DNA of 35,256 nt from a virus: UHGV virus genome UHGV-1783823; one strand, written 5' to 3'. Made by a program: the position numbers and the translations under genes. This document shows positions 18 through 25,740 of the stretch, one piece after another. Below the pieces are notes generated by a model. It made no database searches and was not told where the DNA came from. It worked only from the letters and a program-made list of their open reading frames with translations. Each line of letters starts with the position of its first letter. Within the stretch, counting starts at the first letter, position 1.

Positions 18-6616
<6,599 letters not shown>

Positions 6617-10319: not shown

Positions 10320-10517
10320 ATGCCTACAATCCTAGCAATTCTTCTAAAAAATCTAGGTAGCTTCTTCTGGAAACTCATTTTATCCCTTCTAAGTGAATAC
10401 ATGATTGAGAAAGTGTTCTTTAGGCTTGCAAGATACCTTGCGAGTAAAACAGACACACCTATTGATGATGAGTTCGTAGATAACTTAGAAAAAGCTTTTA
10501 AGGGGGAGAATAAATGA
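10320..10517 (+). CDS. Small membrane protein (holin-like size; function unproven)
   Basis: 65 aa; hydrophobic N-terminus MPTILAILLKNLGSFFWKLILSLL; RBS GAGGTGA upstream. Confidence 0.45.
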   Translation: MPTILAILLKNLGSFFWKLILSLLSEYMIEKVFFRLARYLASKTDTPIDDEFVDNLEKAFKGENK

Positions 10518-10885
10518 AGTGGCTAGAGGAAGCTTTTAAAAATAATATTGGTGCAATTGTAGTTGGTATTTTTAGTGTTATTGGGATGTATACCACCATG
10601 CAAGTCTCGGATGGTAAACAAGAAGTGTCTATCACAACAAAGTTACAACAGTTAGATAATTATTCCAAAAGTAATTATTCAGCTATTCGTGATTTACAGT
10701 CTGATATGAGGCTGCTTCAGCTAGGGATGGAGAACCAGAAAGTCCAGTTAGAGAATGTTAAAGGTGAGAACGCAAAACTTACTAAAACCCTTGATAAATT
10801 CTCTGATAGTGTGAACAATCTGGCTCAATCAGTATCAGCCCTCCAAGCTATTACTGAAAAGAACACAAAGAGTACTGAAAAGTAA
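10514..10885 (+). CDS. Membrane-anchored coiled-coil protein
   Basis: 123 aa; N-terminal TM segment IGAIVVGIFSVIGMY followed by a heptad-like charged region; ATGA overlap with upstream gene. Confidence 0.5.
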   Translation: MKWLEEAFKNNIGAIVVGIFSVIGMYTTMQVSDGKQEVSITTKLQQLDNYSKSNYSAIRDLQSDMRLLQLGMENQKVQLENVKGENAKLTKTLDKFSDSVNNLAQSVSALQAITEKNTKSTEK

Positions 10886-11822: not shown

Positions 11823-12368
11823 TCAAAAGTGTCCTTTTACTTGTGGAACATAGATTTCAAAGGTTGCTTTACCATCATCTGAGGGTCTTGACTGCACCTT
11901 TGCAAATACACGGTTATCATACAGTTTATCGAAGAAGTTTTCAAAAGGTAAATATACAGTGGCCTCTTCAGTAACCTTATGGAAAACTGTATGGAAAACT
12001 ACACCAGCATACGGCAAAGCATTGACAAGAACACCTGCACCACCAATTACAAAGATATCTTCATCAATAGAGCTATCAAGGTACTTCAAAAATGCTCCAA
12101 AGGACTCTTTGCTGGCCTTAGCATACATTACATCTTCTTTACCAAAGTCTATACCAAAATATGGCACAGAGTTTGTTAAGATAAGGTTTTCACGTTCTGG
12201 TAAAGGCTTACTACCCAGAGTCTTAAAAGTCTCATTACCCATCACTACTAAGTTATTTTTAGTGAGTCTCTTAAACTCTTGCATGTCCTGTTTATGTCGA
12301 GGCCACGGCATACCAGTTGGAGTACCAAACTCACCATTTTCACCACTTGCAAAGATTAATTTAATCAT
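11823..12368 (-). CDS. folA: Dihydrofolate reductase
   Basis: N-terminal IFASGENGEFG..MPW...D...F, VVMGNETFKTLG, PLPERENLILT, VIGGAGV; 1-nt gap to thyA. Confidence 0.85.
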   Translation of the reverse strand: MIKLIFASGENGEFGTPTGMPWPRHKQDMQEFKRLTKNNLVVMGNETFKTLGSKPLPERENLILTNSVPYFGIDFGKEDVMYAKASKESFGAFLKYLDSSIDEDIFVIGGAGVLVNALPYAGVVFHTVFHKVTEEATVYLPFENFFDKLYDNRVFAKVQSRPSDDGKATFEIYVPQVKGHF

Positions 12369-12625
12369 TTTGTAAATCCTTTCTTAATGAACCAGTTGAT
12401 AACACTCTTCACAACTTTACTACGATGGTAGATAAAATGTGGAGAGGGTTGGTATGAACCATAAGCCCAGAAAGCGATAATTTCATTACACCCTGTGCAT
12501 CGGGTACTTTCTTCAGCAATATGACCGTTGACTATTTCACTTACCTCACCTTGTAAGTCTGTACACCCGCAATGTGGACAACGGATAGGTGTTCCATCAG
12601 ACTCATAGCAGTGTTCAATTTTCAT
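12365..12625 (-). CDS. Zinc-ribbon protein (CxxC...CxxC)
   Basis: CPHCGC...CTGCNE cysteine pairs; ATGA overlap with DHFR start. Confidence 0.55.
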   Translation of the reverse strand: MKIEHCYESDGTPIRCPHCGCTDLQGEVSEIVNGHIAEESTRCTGCNEIIAFWAYGSYQPSPHFIYHRSKVVKSVINWFIKKGFTK

Positions 12626-13141
12626 CTATTTAACCTCAAAAACTGGTTCAAGAACCAATATAAAGTCCACACAGTCATCTTCTTCATCCAGAATACCATC
12701 AAAGTTCTTAGGTACAAAGTCGAAGAGGCTCATAGAATATCGGTCAGAAGTAACCCTGATAGTGTTCCCTATATTCTCTACAGTTAATATTGTACGGCTT
12801 TCTGTTACCTCACTTAGAAGATTACTCACAAAGTCATCTAAGAAGTGTTTCATCAGTGACTTGAAGCCTTTAGGGTAATCTGTACCAGAGTATGTTTCAA
12901 TCTGAGGAACAAGCTTAACATTTATACTAGTCTTTGTTAAGAACGTTTTAGAGAACATGCTATCAGGTAGCTTACAAACAGTCTTTCCAGTACCTTCATG
13001 TTCAATCTCAACAAAACCAGCTTCGTCGCCACATGTAACTATTTTAAAAGATGCTTCATTCTCATACTGTGAAGCCATAAACTTTTTAAGCATTTCTTTA
13101 AGGAAATCTGCATGAGCATCTTGTAAGTAGATATCAATCAT
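12626..13141 (-). CDS. Hypothetical protein
   Basis: 171 aa ORF co-oriented in the early operon; no motif recognised. Confidence 0.55.
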   Translation of the reverse strand: MIDIYLQDAHADFLKEMLKKFMASQYENEASFKIVTCGDEAGFVEIEHEGTGKTVCKLPDSMFSKTFLTKTSINVKLVPQIETYSGTDYPKGFKSLMKHFLDDFVSNLLSEVTESRTILTVENIGNTIRVTSDRYSMSLFDFVPKNFDGILDEEDDCVDFILVLEPVFEVK

Positions 13142-13154
13142 AGTTAATCACCTA

Positions 13155-13514
13155 TTATGGGAACAAGCACTTAATGTCATCGTTTTTGAAAACAAAACTT
13201 GTGTAGTTGTGACCATCAACATCTAGCCAAACAGCCTGAACATCTACACCATCAAGATTCTGGTAAAGCTCTTTGATGAAGTGGTCTTTCACAATCTGGC
13301 TGCTAGTTGTTTCCAGCTTAATGTTCGAGATTGCTGAACCTACAGCCATATAACCCATGACACGTTTCTTCTCAGTATGCTTAATCTTACCATCTTTGTA
13401 AGCCATAATGAGATTGGAGAGAATCTTCACACCATAATACTTTTCAAGGTGAGTAGGTACGCCATAAAAGCCTAATGCGAAGTTTTCAGAGTGGATAATG
13501 TTTTCACGTTTCAT
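13155..13514 (-). CDS. Hypothetical protein
   Basis: 119 aa ORF co-oriented in the early operon; no motif recognised. Confidence 0.55.
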   Translation of the reverse strand: MKRENIIHSENFALGFYGVPTHLEKYYGVKILSNLIMAYKDGKIKHTEKKRVMGYMAVGSAISNIKLETTSSQIVKDHFIKELYQNLDGVDVQAVWLDVDGHNYTSFVFKNDDIKCLFP

Positions 13515-13515
13515 A

Positions 13516-13845
13516 TTAATCTGCCAACCTTAAATTGAAATTAACACCAAATTTTTCACATACTTCCAACATATACTCAAGGGAGACGTTACCAGTGAGA
13601 TGGATTATGTTGGATACACGAGCCTGAGAGATACCACAAATTTTAGCAACTTGCTCTTGAGAAAGACCTCTGGATTTAATCTCTCTCTTAAAACGATGTG
13701 CAACGAAATCCCTCATCTCGTCTACATCCATTGGACAAATATAACTCTCCATTTCAGCCTCTCTATCAGCCTCCCAATCATCTTGTGGAGCATAAGGGTC
13801 AAAAACCTCATTCATCTTTCTTCTTCCGTTTACGTGAAGTATCAA
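13516..13845 (-). CDS. Helix-turn-helix DNA-binding protein (XRE-like HTH at C-terminus)
   Basis: LSQEQVAKICGISQARVSNIIHL matches HTH_3-type helix-turn-helix pattern; true start may be the internal Met (MNEVFDPY). Confidence 0.6.
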   Translation of the reverse strand: MILHVNGRRKMNEVFDPYAPQDDWEADREAEMESYICPMDVDEMRDFVAHRFKREIKSRGLSQEQVAKICGISQARVSNIIHLTGNVSLEYMLEVCEKFGVNFNLRLAD

Positions 13846-14020
13846 TTAATGAGTCTATGTTTGTAGCTCTGACCTTTTCACGTTCATCATTAAGATAATC
13901 GTCAAGAGCCTTTTCAATCTGTGAATCATCCTGACAGATGACTGTAAAGACTGTAAAGCCGTCTGTATCGTCAATTATCTTACCATAACCGCTTCTGGGA
14001 TGTAACTTTTTAAGAGCCAT
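13808..14020 (-). CDS. Hypothetical small protein with basic C-terminus
   Basis: 70 aa ORF; overlaps upstream gene by ~38 nt; C-terminal RKRKKKDE. Confidence 0.4.
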   Translation of the reverse strand: MALKKLHPRSGYGKIIDDTDGFTVFTVICQDDSQIEKALDDYLNDEREKVRATNIDSLIDTSRKRKKKDE

Positions 14021-14021
14021 A

Positions 14022-14405
14022 TCAAATACCTGTGCAGCTTCTGTTTTCTAAGAAATACTCAACACCATACATAGCTTTTTGCATCAAATCTTCTTTAAAC
14101 TGGATACGATGATTGAGCATAGCCTGTACATCAATATCATCAGGGTGCTTCTCTTTAATATTTGCAGATTGCAGGAAATACTCTGCAAGAACACGATACT
14201 GATAGTCAGTTACCTTATCAGTCATCTCTGTTAAAGACTCTTCAGAGATTGGTTTAAGTAGTTCACCTTTAGATAGGGCAACACCTTTAACAATCTGGCA
14301 AGTGTCTTCTGGAACACCTGATAAGTCCACATTTGGAAGTTCTGTTGCATTGACTGGTAAATTCATTGCCATAACCATTGCAGCAGCTAATAAAATCTTT
14401 TTCAT
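14022..14405 (-). CDS. Secreted/periplasmic protein with N-terminal signal peptide
   Basis: MKKILLAAAMVMAMNLPVNATE has the n-h-c architecture of a Sec signal peptide with an AxA-like cleavage region. Confidence 0.6.
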   Translation of the reverse strand: MKKILLAAAMVMAMNLPVNATELPNVDLSGVPEDTCQIVKGVALSKGELLKPISEESLTEMTDKVTDYQYRVLAEYFLQSANIKEKHPDDIDVQAMLNHRIQFKEDLMQKAMYGVEYFLENRSCTGI

Positions 14406-14450
14406 AATGACCTCAAAGTTATATTAAATTTTGTATTACATTGAGTATAA

Positions 14451-14497
14451 AAATAAGCTATAACACCTGACTTGTCAACAGATTTTATAGCTTATTT
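14451..14497. promoter_or_regulatory. 13-bp perfect inverted repeat with 21-bp spacer containing a TTGACA hexamer (- strand)
   Basis: AAATAAGCTATAA (14451-14463) and its reverse complement TTATAGCTTATTT (14485-14497); spacer includes TGTCAA at 14473-14478. Confidence 0.5.
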
Positions 14498-14532
14498 GGC
14501 AGATTTTTTATAAGGCTACTGCCATCCTTCCA

Positions 14533-14582
14533 TACCTTACCTAACCAAACCGAACCTCACACAACCAGACCGAGCCGCACCC
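14533..14582. repeat. Pentanucleotide tandem array A, ~10 units, consensus NACCN; G-poor on + strand
   Basis: tacct tacct aacca aaccg aacct cacac aacca gaccg agccg caccc; ACC recurs with exact 5-bp period. Confidence 0.7.
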
Positions 14583-14588
14583 CGCCTT

Positions 14589-14612: not shown

Positions 14613-14664
14613 TTTTAAAAAGGTAAGTCTCATTTTAATGTAGCTGAGACTAACTACCCATACT

Positions 14665-14748
14665 GTACCGCACCTGACCCGACCTGACCAGACCTAACAT
14701 TACCGTGCCACACCGTACCGAACAGAACACTGCCATACCTCACATCAC
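14665..14748. repeat. Pentanucleotide tandem array B, ~16 units, consensus NNACC; - strand reads GGTCT GGTCA GGTCG GGTCA GGTGC GGTAC
   Basis: gtacc gcacc tgacc cgacc tgacc agacc taaca ttacc gtgcc acacc gtacc gaaca gaaca ctgcc atacc tcaca; strict 5-bp register over ~80 bp. Confidence 0.7.
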
Positions 14749-14781
14749 TTAAAAACCCTCTTAGAAGACTCTTAAGTGATG
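14743..14781. promoter_or_regulatory. Conserved box copy 2 (TTAAAAACCCTCTTAGAAGACTC, 14749-14771) embedded in a 10-bp perfect inverted repeat
   Basis: CATCACTTAA (14743-14752) and TTAAGTGATG (14772-14781) are exact reverse complements; the 19-nt loop carries the box core. Confidence 0.5.
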
Positions 14782-14996
14782 CTGGTGAGTACCCGTTGGT
14801 TTATGCTGCTCAGTATACTCACCAAATTTTCTATGTCAACAACTTTTTATATAAAAGTCCTGATAGCTATATGTGTTACAAAACAGAAGATTGTGAACAA
14901 AACACCCATTGCAAAAGATGTGTCCAAAAGCTTACTTGCAATGTATGACAATACAAAGACAACCAGTATAAACAGAATGACTGTACTGAACATAGT

Positions 14997-24865: not shown

Positions 24866-25723
24866 ATGTCTAAAGTTGTTAAAATGAAAGCTCCGGTAGA
24901 GAAGTACAACGGTACTGAACGTCAAACTCTGCGTTACCTTCTGAAAGATGTCTGGTTTTATTACCTGAACACTTCACCACGTCCGGGAAAAGGCAAGTCC
25001 ATTGATAAGAAATTCCCAGGCAAAGACTGTAACTACAGCGTTTCAATTCTGGCAGAAGATGGTAACAAGCTGTTTAAAGAGTTTACTAAGTCTAAGAAAA
25101 ACCCAGAAGGTTGGGATAAAGTTACCACTGAAGCAGTTGATGCAGATGACTTCGAAGAGAAGTTTGGTTGCAAACCACCATTTGAAGCAGACACTTACTA
25201 CATCTTGAAAGTAAGTCGTGCAGCAGCTTATAAAGATGGTGCTGTATGGACAGCTAAACAGTCATTCCCTGTAATGCTGATTGAAGAAGTAAATGGTAAG
25301 CGTGTAGCTGTTAAGCAGCCGATGAAGAAAATCAAAGCTCAAGCATCTGATAAGCATGAAGATGATAAGAACTATGATGTAATTCATCCAGATATCGCAG
25401 TTGGTAACGGTTCTTTTGGTAGTGTGATTCTTTCTACTCACTTCTACACTTTTGAGAACAATGTTCTGACAAAACCTATTCAGGAACAGTTTATCATTGA
25501 TACCCTTGTACCTTACACTGGTGGTAACGGTGCTAACGGTGAACCTGAGCTAGATGAAGATGAACTGGCTATGCTTGGTCTTGATGGTGTCGAAGATAAC
25601 GGTGAAATCACTGAAGAAGACGCAACAGACCATAAATCTTCGAATGATTCTGATGATGGTGACGATGAAGACTTGCCAGACCCAGATGACGAAGAAGATG
25701 AAGACTTCGATACAGAAGACTAA
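24866..25723 (+). CDS. Putative single-stranded DNA-binding protein with acidic C-terminal tail
   Basis: Own strong promoter and terminator; extremely acidic C-terminus (DDGDDEDLPDPDDEEDEDFDTED) as in phage SSBs; lies between primase-helicase and flap endonuclease; no motif-level proof. Confidence 0.5.
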   Translation: MSKVVKMKAPVEKYNGTERQTLRYLLKDVWFYYLNTSPRPGKGKSIDKKFPGKDCNYSVSILAEDGNKLFKEFTKSKKNPEGWDKVTTEAVDADDFEEKFGCKPPFEADTYYILKVSRAAAYKDGAVWTAKQSFPVMLIEEVNGKRVAVKQPMKKIKAQASDKHEDDKNYDVIHPDIAVGNGSFGSVILSTHFYTFENNVLTKPIQEQFIIDTLVPYTGGNGANGEPELDEDELAMLGLDGVEDNGEITEEDATDHKSSNDSDDGDDEDLPDPDDEEDEDFDTED

Positions 25724-25740
25724 TATCTAAAAGTTACTTT

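What the first reader, a model, noticed from the sequence alone, without database searches (positions are those of the whole stretch)
14022..14405. Secreted ~105-aa protein exported to the periplasm
A cleavable Sec-type signal peptide on a small phage protein in the early operon, immediately downstream of the repeat island. Candidate roles are host envelope modification, exclusion, or interference with periplasmic or outer-membrane defence components. Function cannot be assigned from sequence.
Basis: inference. Interest (0 to 1): 0.45.

Follow-up and report, generated by a model that had tools for sequence, protein, structure and literature searches.

The report
Exported small phage protein, function unknown
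A Felix O1-type phage makes a small three-helix protein with a standard export signal that should send it to the periplasm, the space between the host's two membranes; it is a real, conserved gene of unknown function that is not needed for growth on laboratory E. coli, and its best guess role is blocking attack by other phages.

Summary
Window 14022-14405, on the minus strand, encodes a 127-aa precursor. It has a textbook Sec/signal-peptidase-I signal (MKK, a 12-residue hydrophobic core, VNA|TE) and a 107-aa acidic mature domain.

The window is a Felixounavirus. The gene is Felix O1 ORF87 and SUSP1 gp037, in PHROG 4332, and every source calls it hypothetical.

- **Conservation:** six lineages only 30-35% identical all keep the signal-peptide architecture and the same two cysteines.
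- **Selection:** dN/dS within the genus is 0.04-0.15.
- **Fold:** AlphaFold gives a confident three-helix bundle (pLDDT 86). No specific structural or sequence relative was found, and T4 Spackle and RI do not match.
- **Published data:** the gene has a conserved sigma-70 promoter. Its transcript peaks at 25 min in Felix O1, and the protein was not among the 17 virion proteins listed for Felix O1. Knockdown of the SUSP1 homologue has no fitness cost.

Function stays inferred. I read it as a non-enzymatic periplasmic binder. Spackle-like superinfection exclusion is the leading guess (about 0.3). A host envelope target is nearly as likely.

The neighbouring "repeat island" matches the recently described VIPR guide-RNA (vrRNA) arrays. 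The window has no vipr gene, and the secreted protein is not part of that system.

Interest is modest.

The parts
14022..14405 (-). Coding sequence of the 127-aa precursor, including the stop TGA at 14024-14022. Orthologue of Felix O1 ORF87 (Felix01p159) and SUSP1 AVU07_agp037. PHROG 4332.
   Evidence: dN/dS 0.035-0.15.
14346..14405 (-). Signal peptide, residues 1-20: MKKILLAAAMVMAMNLPVNA. Predicted signal peptidase I cleavage between A20 and T21.
   Evidence: A20 is invariant. The n/h/c architecture is kept in six lineages at 30-35% identity.
14025..14345 (-). Mature domain, residues 21-127 (107 aa, acidic). Predicted three-helix bundle with helices at 31-45, 55-86 and 93-121. The conserved end is loop 46-54 (G-E-L-x-K-P-x-S), the start of helix 2 (E60, D63, D67), the end of helix 3 (G114, V115, Y117, F118) and the C-terminal tail R-x-C-x-G.
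   Evidence: AF2 model with pLDDT 86.2, over 90 across most of the mature part. The most divergent member gives the same topology. Per-segment conservation.
14298..14300 (-). Codon of Cys36 in helix 1, invariant. Proposed disulfide partner of Cys124.
   Evidence: The bond itself is inferred, not measured.
14034..14036 (-). Codon of Cys124 in the C-terminal tail, invariant.
14410..14414 (-). Shine-Dalgarno GAGGT, 4 nt before the ATG.
   Evidence: GAGGT is present in five of the seven aligned lineages.
14444..14478 (-). Sigma-70-type promoter. TTGACA lies at 14478-14473, followed by either TATTTT (14455-14450, 17-nt spacer) or the TATACT box (14449-14444), whose first five bases TATAC are invariant. 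In repeat-less relatives the same boxes read TTGACA-N16-TATACT.
   Evidence: TGTTGACA and TATAC are invariant in seven lineages.
14451..14497 (-). Hairpin of about 18-19 bp followed by a U-run. Its loop carries the -35 hexamer. It is probably the 3' tail and terminator of the upstream vrRNA-like unit, so it marks the start of a separate transcription unit for the secreted-protein operon.
   Evidence: (z = -4.0 against shuffles)
13808..14020 (-). Downstream 70-aa gene (PHROG 4473). Its ATG lies 1 nt after the stop of the secreted-protein gene. It comes next in the conserved order: secreted protein, about 70 aa, HTH regulator, about 120 aa.

Best explanation
The gene encodes a small protein that the host Sec machinery exports and signal peptidase I cuts after Ala20. 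It then folds in the periplasm into a 107-residue acidic three-helix bundle, stapled by a Cys36-Cys124 disulfide.

Host RNA polymerase transcribes it from its own sigma-70 promoter before the late genes. It therefore builds up in the periplasm of the infected cell during the replication phase.

It has no catalytic-looking features. One end of the bundle is strongly conserved: the loop G-E-L-x-K-P-x-S, an acidic stripe E60/D63/D67 and the disulfide-tethered C-terminal tail. The other end varies freely. I therefore read it as a stoichiometric binder or inhibitor, not an enzyme.

The most likely job is protecting the already-infected cell from a second attack through the envelope, that is, superinfection exclusion. 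It would do this as T4 Spackle does, by neutralising a basic protein that acts in the periplasm, such as a muramidase or the tail tip of an incoming phage.

Shown: the gene is real and under purifying selection, the export signal is conserved, the predicted fold is confident, and published data give transcript timing and dispensability in the laboratory.

Inferred: the actual export, the disulfide, the binding mode and the target.
For: Export:
- Canonical n/h/c regions and AXA site, conserved in six lineages at 30-35% identity.
- Two invariant Cys near the ends of the mature chain.
- It is the only real gene in the window that passes the signal-peptide rules.

Fold:
- pLDDT 86 and 83 for two members about 32% identical, with the same three helices.

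Binding end:
- Conservation is 0.80 in loop 46-54 and 0.75 in the C-terminal tail, against 0.44-0.50 at the opposite end.

Timing and dispensability:
- Conserved TTGACA/TATAC promoter.
- Felix O1 ORF87 transcript is maximal at 25 min, with the ligase and polymerase (PMC3185647).
- It was not among the 17 virion proteins listed for Felix O1.
- SUSP1 agp037 is scored 'Not Fit' in CRISPRi-ART (PMC11879866 supplement). That is what one expects of an exclusion or competition gene on a laboratory host.

Parallel with T4 Spackle:
- Spackle also has an MKK signal peptide and a small acidic helical bundle.
- It also has one Cys near each end of the mature chain, and these form a disulfide.
- It is an early gene set among replication genes, and it binds a basic patch on the gp5 lysozyme.

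Evolution:
- This is the fastest-evolving gene of its operon between genera (30-35% identity against 50-86% for most neighbours), yet nearly invariant within a genus. That pattern fits co-evolution with a lineage-specific partner.
Against: - No experiment shows export or exclusion.
- There is no sequence or fold relationship to Spackle beyond the signal peptide.
- No peptidoglycan-hydrolase domain was found in the tape-measure C-terminus, hub, spike or wedge genes in the window. The PHROG label 'endolysin' on 822-1625 resolves to a Dit-like tail protein in Pfam. The Spackle-type target is therefore not evident in this phage, although only 35 of about 87 kb could be examined.
- The six-gene block that contains this gene is absent from an Erwinia-infecting member of the subfamily. 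That fits a host-directed function just as well.
- A three-helix bundle is too generic a fold to point to any particular partner.
Confidence: 0.33

Rival explanations
1. The protein is exported as above, but it targets the host. It would bind and neutralise, or deliberately trigger, a periplasmic or envelope component of Enterobacteriaceae. Candidates are an envelope-stress sensor domain, a protease, a nuclease, a peptidoglycan enzyme or an envelope-located defence. This would keep the infected cell productive.
For: - The block from the secreted protein to the 86-aa gene lies between ligase and DHFR only in Ounavirinae infecting Escherichia, Salmonella, Shigella and Citrobacter. Erwinia phage Ep030 has a single unrelated 184-aa ORF in its place.
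- The block also holds an HTH regulator and a zinc-ribbon protein with weak Lar-like similarity, which looks like a host-takeover module.
- The conserved 'head' (14 columns invariant in the ten aligned sequences and 13 more nearly so) could match a conserved host partner.
- The gene is dispensable on a defence-poor laboratory strain.
Against: - Divergence follows phage genus, not host. E. coli is infected by Felixounavirus, Suspvirus and Mooglevirus, whose proteins are only about 33% identical. Salmonella and E. coli Felixounaviruses carry proteins that are 95-99% identical.
- No similarity to any known periplasmic regulator or inhibitor.
Confidence: 0.3
2. The protein is a lysis-timing factor. 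It would act in the periplasm on the periplasmic part of a holin, spanin or endolysin, delaying or coordinating lysis as the T4 RI antiholin does.
For: - It is periplasmic, small, helical, non-essential and fast-evolving, like RI.
- The phage has single-pass membrane proteins with a periplasmic coiled coil at the end of the tail-fibre operon (10320-10517 and 10514-10885). Whichard et al. (2010) listed the counterpart of the second (ORF79) among possible holins.
Against: - It has a cleavable AXA signal rather than a signal-anchor-release domain.
- It has no similarity to RI.
- It is transcribed with replication genes, not late or lysis genes.
- The Erwinia phage keeps the two membrane proteins but lacks this gene.
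Confidence: 0.12
3. The N-terminal hydrophobic segment is not cleaved. The protein would then be an inner-membrane-anchored (type II) protein or a lipoprotein, not a soluble periplasmic one.
For: - No dedicated predictor or experiment was available.
- The NCBIfam and hhalign hits to the N-terminus only show that it resembles signal peptides.
Against: - The hydrophobic core is 10-12 residues, with helix breakers (N15, P17) ahead of an invariant Ala at -1 and a small or aliphatic residue at -3 in all lineages.
- No lineage has a Cys at +1 or a lipobox.
- AlphaFold gives the segment pLDDT about 41 and leaves it detached from the bundle.
Confidence: 0.06
4. The gene is an accessory component of the adjacent VIPR (vipr/vap/vrRNA) system.
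For: - It lies directly downstream of the GGY-NN repeat tracts.
- Its -35 hexamer sits in the loop of the last repeat unit's tail hairpin.
Against: - The gene, with its promoter, is present in Mordin and ESh22, which have no repeats and no vipr or vap next to the gene.
- 259 phage records carry the gene, but only about 118 Ounavirinae records carry the 195-aa VIPR-locus protein.
- The VIPR paper describes two-gene loci whose accessory proteins act on DNA. A periplasmic protein cannot reach DNA.
Confidence: 0.02

Closest known systems
T4 Spackle (Sp, gp61.3), periplasmic superinfection-exclusion protein that inhibits the gp5 tail lysozyme
   Same: - N-terminal MKK Sec signal with an AXA site.
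- Small acidic all-helical mature domain.
- One Cys near each end of the mature chain. In Spackle these are Cys29 and Cys81, and they are disulfide-bonded.
- Encoded among DNA-replication genes and made before the late genes.
- Non-essential in the laboratory.
   Different: - The mature domain is 107 aa rather than 75 aa, and a three-helix bundle rather than a flat five-helix bundle.
- No sequence similarity outside the signal peptide (hhalign aligns residues 1-19 only).
- No gp5-type lysozyme domain was found in the tail genes within the window.
T4 RI antiholin
   Same: A small periplasmic helical protein of a virulent myovirus. It is dispensable and evolves fast.
   Different: - RI uses an uncleaved signal-anchor-release domain. 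This protein has a classical cleavable signal.
- No sequence similarity.
- Different expression context.
P1 Sim and lipoprotein exclusion factors (T5 Llp, phi80/N15 Cor). This comparison rests on my own knowledge.
   Same: Phage proteins that carry export signals and act in the envelope to block entry of further phage.
   Different: - Llp and Cor are lipoproteins that mask FhuA. This protein has no lipobox.
- Sim is about twice the size. It was not compared here.
Generic antiparallel three-helix bundles (ribosome-recycling-factor domain I, syntaxin Habc domains, designed binders)
   Different: Sequence identity is 3-13%, Foldseek E-values are above 0.8, and the proteins come from unrelated compartments and functions. 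This is fold convergence, not homology.

Membership tests
Sec-dependent, signal peptidase I-cleaved signal peptides | Positively charged n-region | tested here: met
   MKK in all six lineages.
Sec-dependent, signal peptidase I-cleaved signal peptides | Hydrophobic h-region of about 7-15 residues, shorter than a membrane span | tested here: met
   Core of 10-12 residues with mean Kyte-Doolittle 2.1-2.75. The uncharged run is 15-20 residues.
Sec-dependent, signal peptidase I-cleaved signal peptides | Small or neutral residues at -3 and -1 (AXA rule), 15-30 residues from the start | tested here: met
   Sites are VNA|T, ASA|M, AAA|M, AYA|D/V and ASA|N. Ala at -1 is invariant.
Sec-dependent, signal peptidase I-cleaved signal peptides | Positive call by a trained predictor (SignalP or DeepTMHMM), or experimental processing and export | not testable with these tools
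   No such predictor or experiment was available. I used only a rule-based scan, with a specificity control of 2 of 116 ORFs flagged.
Bacterial lipoproteins (signal peptidase II) | Lipobox [LVI][ASTVI][GAS]C with Cys at +1 | tested here: not met
   No lineage has a Cys at or near the cleavage site. The only Cys in an h-region (LALC in ESh22 and ITLC in P0006) has Leu at -1.
Tat signal peptides | Twin-arginine motif S/T-R-R-x-F-L-K | tested here: not met
   The n-region is MKK and the first 20 residues contain no Arg.
T4 Spackle family | Sequence homology of the mature domain | tested here: not met
   hhalign of the family profile against T4 Sp aligns only residues 1-19, the signal peptide (probability 26%).
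T4 Spackle family | Same fold as the solved Spackle structures | tested here: not met
T4 Spackle family | A cognate tail-spike lysozyme (gp5-type) in the same phage | tested here: inconclusive
   No lysozyme or peptidoglycan-hydrolase domain was found in the tape-measure C-terminus, Dit-like, hub, spike or wedge proteins of the window. Only 35 kb of the genome was visible.
T4 RI antiholins | Uncleaved signal-anchor-release N-terminus and homology to RI | tested here: not met
   An AXA cleavage site is present. hhalign probability is 0.3%.
VIPR systems (vipr, vap, vrRNA) | Co-occurrence with vipr and vrRNA repeats | tested here: not met
   The gene is present in Mordin and ESh22, which have no repeats and no vipr or vap next to the gene. 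It occurs in 259 records, against about 118 Ounavirinae records with the 195-aa VIPR-locus protein.
PHROG 4332 (Ounavirinae ORF87 family) | Full-length match to the family profile | tested here: met
   E 5.7e-66 over residues 1-127 of 127, matching profile positions 1-126 of 126. The family is annotated 'unknown function'.

The most novel reading that the evidence does not exclude
ORF87 founds a previously unrecognised family of periplasmic phage-versus-phage or phage-versus-envelope-defence inhibitors. It would be unrelated in sequence and fold to Spackle, and would use a conserved acidic, disulfide-tethered head to neutralise a basic protein acting in the periplasm, such as a rival phage's muramidase or tail tip. 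It sits at the same intergenic hotspot where Ounavirinae carry the VIPR RNA-guided anti-competitor system. The locus as a whole would then be an inter-phage competition island with one cytoplasmic and one periplasmic arm.
Probability: 0.2. Interest if true: 0.55.

Novelty: new member of a known kind. Interest (0 to 1): 0.3.

Why it matters
Felix O1-type phages are widely used for Salmonella and E. coli typing, biocontrol and therapy, yet most of their genes have no assigned function. An exported protein is one of the few ways a virulent phage can act on the host envelope from inside the cell. The known examples (T4 Spackle and Imm, T5 Llp, P1 Sim) govern superinfection, cocktail compatibility and loss of progeny on cell debris.

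If this protein excludes related or unrelated phages, it would affect how Felixounaviruses behave in phage cocktails. If it targets a host envelope component, it is a small, stable, easily expressed probe for that component. The claim is cheap to test with reporter fusions, plasmid expression against a phage panel, and pull-downs.

As it stands, this is a sound annotation upgrade from 'hypothetical protein' to 'exported periplasmic three-helix protein, non-essential'. It is not a surprise.

Tried and rejected
- **Sequence libraries.** These gave nothing for the protein beyond PHROG 4332 'unknown function':
  - Pfam.
  - NCBIfam, which gave only a signal-peptide-level hit to a fimbrial subunit.
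  - PADLOC, with a 13-bit noise hit.
  - PDB by phmmer and by family profile.
- **Homologue searches.** The word-indexed search of 5.8 billion proteins found only near-identical copies. The exhaustive HMMER search of 1.84 billion representatives found five clusters, of which the three with named members and the one traced to its contigs are phage; the fifth is a 57-aa fragment.
- **Literature.** Searches for Felixounavirus with signal peptide, for Felix O1 with superinfection exclusion, and for phage accessory-gene screens mentioned nothing about this protein. The Felix O1 genome paper does not mention a signal peptide.
- **Tail lysozyme.** I considered that window 822-1625 might be one, because of a PHROG 'endolysin' hit. 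Pfam shows a Dit-like tail protein, so I rejected this.
- **Membership tests that failed.** I considered Spackle, RI and VIPR-accessory membership and rejected all three on direct tests.
- **Syntenic replacement.** I looked in an Erwinia Ounavirinae phage for a non-homologous exported protein in the same slot. The whole six-gene block is missing there.
- **Rfam.** No known RNA family lies between 13900 and 15100.

Full report
**What the window is.** The 3.5 kb around the finding matches more than 180 phage records over at least 80% of its length, mostly at 90-99% nucleotide identity. Nearly all are Felixounavirus (Ounavirinae) phages of Escherichia, Salmonella, Shigella and Citrobacter. The window runs from the end of the tape-measure gene through baseplate and tail-fibre genes. 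It then continues into a leftward block of nucleotide-metabolism and replication genes (thymidylate synthase, DHFR, ligase, polymerase) and on to primase/helicase and ribonucleotide reductase.

**The observation.**
- An ORF occupies exactly 14022-14405, on the minus strand, and encodes 127 aa.
- It has a GAGGT ribosome-binding site 4 nt upstream of its ATG.
- Its stop codon lies 1 nt before the ATG of the next gene.
- The N-terminus, MKKILLAAAMVMAMNLPVNA|TELPN, has every feature of a Sec signal cut by signal peptidase I. It has two lysines, an 18-residue uncharged run with a 12-residue hydrophobic core, helix breakers before the site, Val at -3 and Ala at -1.
- Cleavage after A20 leaves 107 residues of about 12 kDa and pI about 4.6.
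- There is no lipobox and no twin arginine.
- A simple rule-based scan flags only this gene and one 58-aa ORF at 25554-25730 among the 116 ORFs of 50 aa or more in the window.

**Real gene, real signal.**
- The protein matches PHROG 4332 end to end (E 5.7e-66, 'unknown function').
- It is annotated as a hypothetical protein in relatives.
- It is Felix O1 ORF87 (Felix01p159) and SUSP1 AVU07_agp037.
- tblastn finds it in 259 phage records. 214 are at 90-100% identity, and 43 are below 60%, from the Mooglevirus and Suspvirus genera.
- An exhaustive HMMER scan of 1.84 billion representative proteins finds only five clusters. The three with named members and the one traced to its contigs are phage. 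The fifth is a 57-aa fragment.
- Within Felixounavirus, dN/dS is 0.035-0.15.
- Across six lineages that share only 30-35% identity, the residues of the signal peptide change but its architecture does not. Each keeps MKK, a 10-12-residue core with hydropathy 2.1-2.75, and a (V/A)-x-A site with invariant Ala at -1. Each mature domain is 104-108 aa and acidic, with exactly two cysteines at equivalent columns.
- The DNA around the start (ATGAAAAAG) is invariant.

This is as strong as sequence evidence for export can be without a trained predictor or an experiment. Neither was available.

**Structure.**
- AlphaFold2 on a shallow but diverse alignment gives mean pLDDT 86 and pTM 0.75. The signal peptide is unstructured (pLDDT about 41). 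The mature part scores above 90 almost throughout and forms three helices at 31-45, 55-86 and 93-121.
- The most divergent member, P0008, gives the same topology at pLDDT 83.
- Cys36 lies in helix 1 and Cys124 in the short C-terminal tail. I infer a disulfide between them but could not measure the distance.
- Conservation is polarised. Loop 46-54 (G-E-L-x-K-P-x-S) scores 0.80 and the C-terminal tail (R-x-C-x-G) 0.75. The polar residues E48, K51, E60, D63 and D67 are invariant or nearly so. The opposite end of the bundle (loop 87-92 and the first half of helix 3) scores 0.44-0.50 and tolerates an indel.
- This looks like a binding head on a variable stalk, not an enzyme.

**What it resembles.**
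- Foldseek finds nothing below E 0.8 in the PDB. In the viral structure set it finds only its own family.
- Pfam, NCBIfam, PADLOC and PDB sequence and profile searches are empty.
- I fetched T4 Spackle and RI from the T4 record and compared them with the family profile. Only the signal peptides of Spackle and this family align, and RI does not align at all.
- The protein is therefore not a member of either family.

**Expression and importance, from published data.**
- A sigma-70-type promoter lies directly upstream, and its boxes are invariant in seven lineages (TGTTGACA ... TATAC).
- In relatives without repeats it reads TTGACA-N16-TATACT. In this window a 7-nt insertion makes the usable -10 box TATTTT at a 17-nt spacing.
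- In Felix O1, RT-PCR places ORF87 among genes maximal at 25 min ('middle'), together with the ligase, polymerase and thymidylate synthase (PMC3185647).
- It was not among the 17 virion proteins listed for Felix O1.
- In the transcriptome-wide CRISPRi-ART screen of SUSP1, agp037 scores 'Not Fit', with fitness about -0.76 (PMC11879866 supplement). Knocking it down costs nothing on laboratory E. coli.

**Evolutionary context.**
- The order 'secreted protein, about 70 aa, HTH regulator, about 120 aa ... DHFR, thymidylate synthase' is kept in Felixounavirus, Mooglevirus, Suspvirus and a metagenomic relative.
- Between genera this is the fastest-evolving gene of the block. It is 30-35% identical, against 50-86% for its neighbours apart from the 171-aa protein at 36-42%.
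- An Erwinia-infecting member of the subfamily (Ep030) lacks the whole six-gene block between ligase and DHFR. The block is therefore an accessory module of the phages that infect Escherichia, Salmonella, Shigella and Citrobacter.

**Mechanism.**
- *Shown:* this is a genuine, selected gene with a conserved Sec-type signal, a confident helical-bundle prediction and pre-late transcription, and it is dispensable in the laboratory.
- *Inferred:* it accumulates as a soluble, disulfide-stabilised protein in the periplasm of the infected cell and works by binding a partner through its conserved acidic head.
- *Leading role:* I rank superinfection exclusion first, at about one in three. The architecture, charge, cysteine placement, genomic setting and dispensability parallel T4 Spackle. 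Spackle is an acidic disulfide-bonded helical bundle that clamps a basic patch on the gp5 lysozyme (PMC7677548). Genus-level divergence with within-genus constancy also suits a partner that is itself a phage protein.
- *Against this:* I found no tail-associated peptidoglycan hydrolase in the tail genes visible here. The host-restricted distribution of the module fits a host target equally well.
- *Rivals:* a host periplasmic or envelope target is nearly as likely (0.3). A lysis-timing role is less likely (0.12). An uncleaved anchor (0.06) and membership of VIPR (0.02) are unlikely.

**The 'repeat island'.**
- Read on the minus strand, 14749-14650 and 14586-14522 are tracts of pentamers of the form GGY-NN, of about 17-20 and 11-13 units.
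- Each tract is followed by a conserved tail that folds well (z = -4.0).
- This is the architecture of the vrRNAs of VIPR systems, described in 2026 for phage SUSP1. There, a vipr gene and a vap gene are flanked by RNAs of about 100 nt, each made of 9-16 YNNGG repeats plus a structured 3' tail, which guide transcriptional silencing of competing elements (bioRxiv 10.64898/2026.04.26.720920).
- SUSP1 and tootiki carry the two genes between such tracts. This window, Bas63 and Felix O1 carry repeat tracts but no such genes at this locus. tblastn with the SUSP1 proteins finds nothing in the window.
- The 195-aa VIPR-locus protein occurs in about 118 Ounavirinae records, against 259 for the secreted protein.
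- The secreted-protein gene also occurs, with its promoter, in phages that have no repeats at all. It is therefore a neighbour of the VIPR locus, not a part of it.
- The only physical link is that the -35 hexamer of its promoter lies in the loop of the last vrRNA-like tail hairpin.

**Verdict.** The finding upgrades a 'hypothetical protein' to a conserved, exported, non-essential periplasmic three-helix protein that probably has a competitive or protective role. It is a new member of a known kind of phage protein and of modest interest (0.3). It would become more interesting only if a new exclusion or anti-envelope-defence mechanism were demonstrated.

Noticed in passing
window 14522-14586 and 14650-14749 (read on the minus strand), with conserved tails down to about 14445: The 'repeat island' consists of GGY-NN pentamer tracts with a structured 3' tail. 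This matches the vrRNAs of the VIPR RNA-guided silencing system described for phage SUSP1 in 2026. The window has no vipr or vap homologue, so these are orphan vrRNA-like units. Bas63 and Felix O1 have the same arrangement at this locus.
   Followed up: partly
window 14444-14497 (minus strand): The -35 hexamer of the secreted-protein promoter lies in the loop of an 18-19-bp hairpin followed by a U-run, the tail or terminator of the last repeat unit. Phages with this tail carry a 7-nt insertion that moves the conserved TATACT from 16 to 23 nt after TTGACA. The terminator and promoter overlap, and promoter strength may differ between phages that have repeats and those that do not.
   Followed up: partly
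window 14812-14839 (minus strand) and ORF 14847-14993: A near-consensus promoter, TTGACA-16-TATACT, sits upstream of the distal repeat tract and would drive the vrRNA-like units. A 48-aa ORF just upstream is annotated as a gene in phage JohannRWettstein, but I did not assess it here.
   Followed up: no
L004 879-1466 (SUSP1): The 195-aa VIPR-locus protein is 95-100% identical across Suspvirus, Mooglevirus and Felixounavirus. Neighbouring core genes are only 30-86% identical between these genera. This suggests recent horizontal spread of the cassette within the subfamily.
   Followed up: partly
L012 (Erwinia phage Ep030) 5091-5645, compared with window 12365-14405: The whole six-gene block between ligase and DHFR is missing from an Erwinia Kolesnikvirus. 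That block comprises the secreted protein, the 70-aa protein, the HTH regulator, and the 119-, 171- and 86-aa proteins. An unrelated 184-aa ORF takes its place.
   Followed up: partly
window 12365-12625 (minus strand): The 86-aa CxxC zinc-ribbon protein has weak, sub-threshold similarity to ECs_2282-family proteins and to Lar-family restriction-alleviation proteins (E 3e-4 and 2e-3).
   Followed up: no
window 12626-13141 (minus strand): The 171-aa protein (PHROG 4422) is the only other gene of the operon that diverges as fast between genera as the secreted protein, at 36-42% identity.
   Followed up: no
window 10320-10517 and 10514-10885 (plus strand): Two small single-pass membrane proteins sit at the end of the tail-fibre operon. 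The second has a C-terminal coiled coil. They are conserved in the Erwinia relative, and the counterpart of the second (ORF79) was listed as a possible holin in the Felix O1 genome paper. Their architecture would also suit an i-spanin.
   Followed up: no
window 822-1625 (plus strand): The annotations conflict. PHROGs gives a secondary hit labelled 'endolysin' (E 1e-22), while Pfam identifies a Dit-like tail protein (E 2e-20). No peptidoglycan-hydrolase domain was detected.
   Followed up: yes
hit H11 (GU169904, 'Staphylococcus phage SA1'), and two 'Campylobacter' records: Records labelled as Staphylococcus and Campylobacter phages contain about 95% identical Felixounavirus sequence. They are most likely chimeric or mislabelled database entries.
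   Followed up: no
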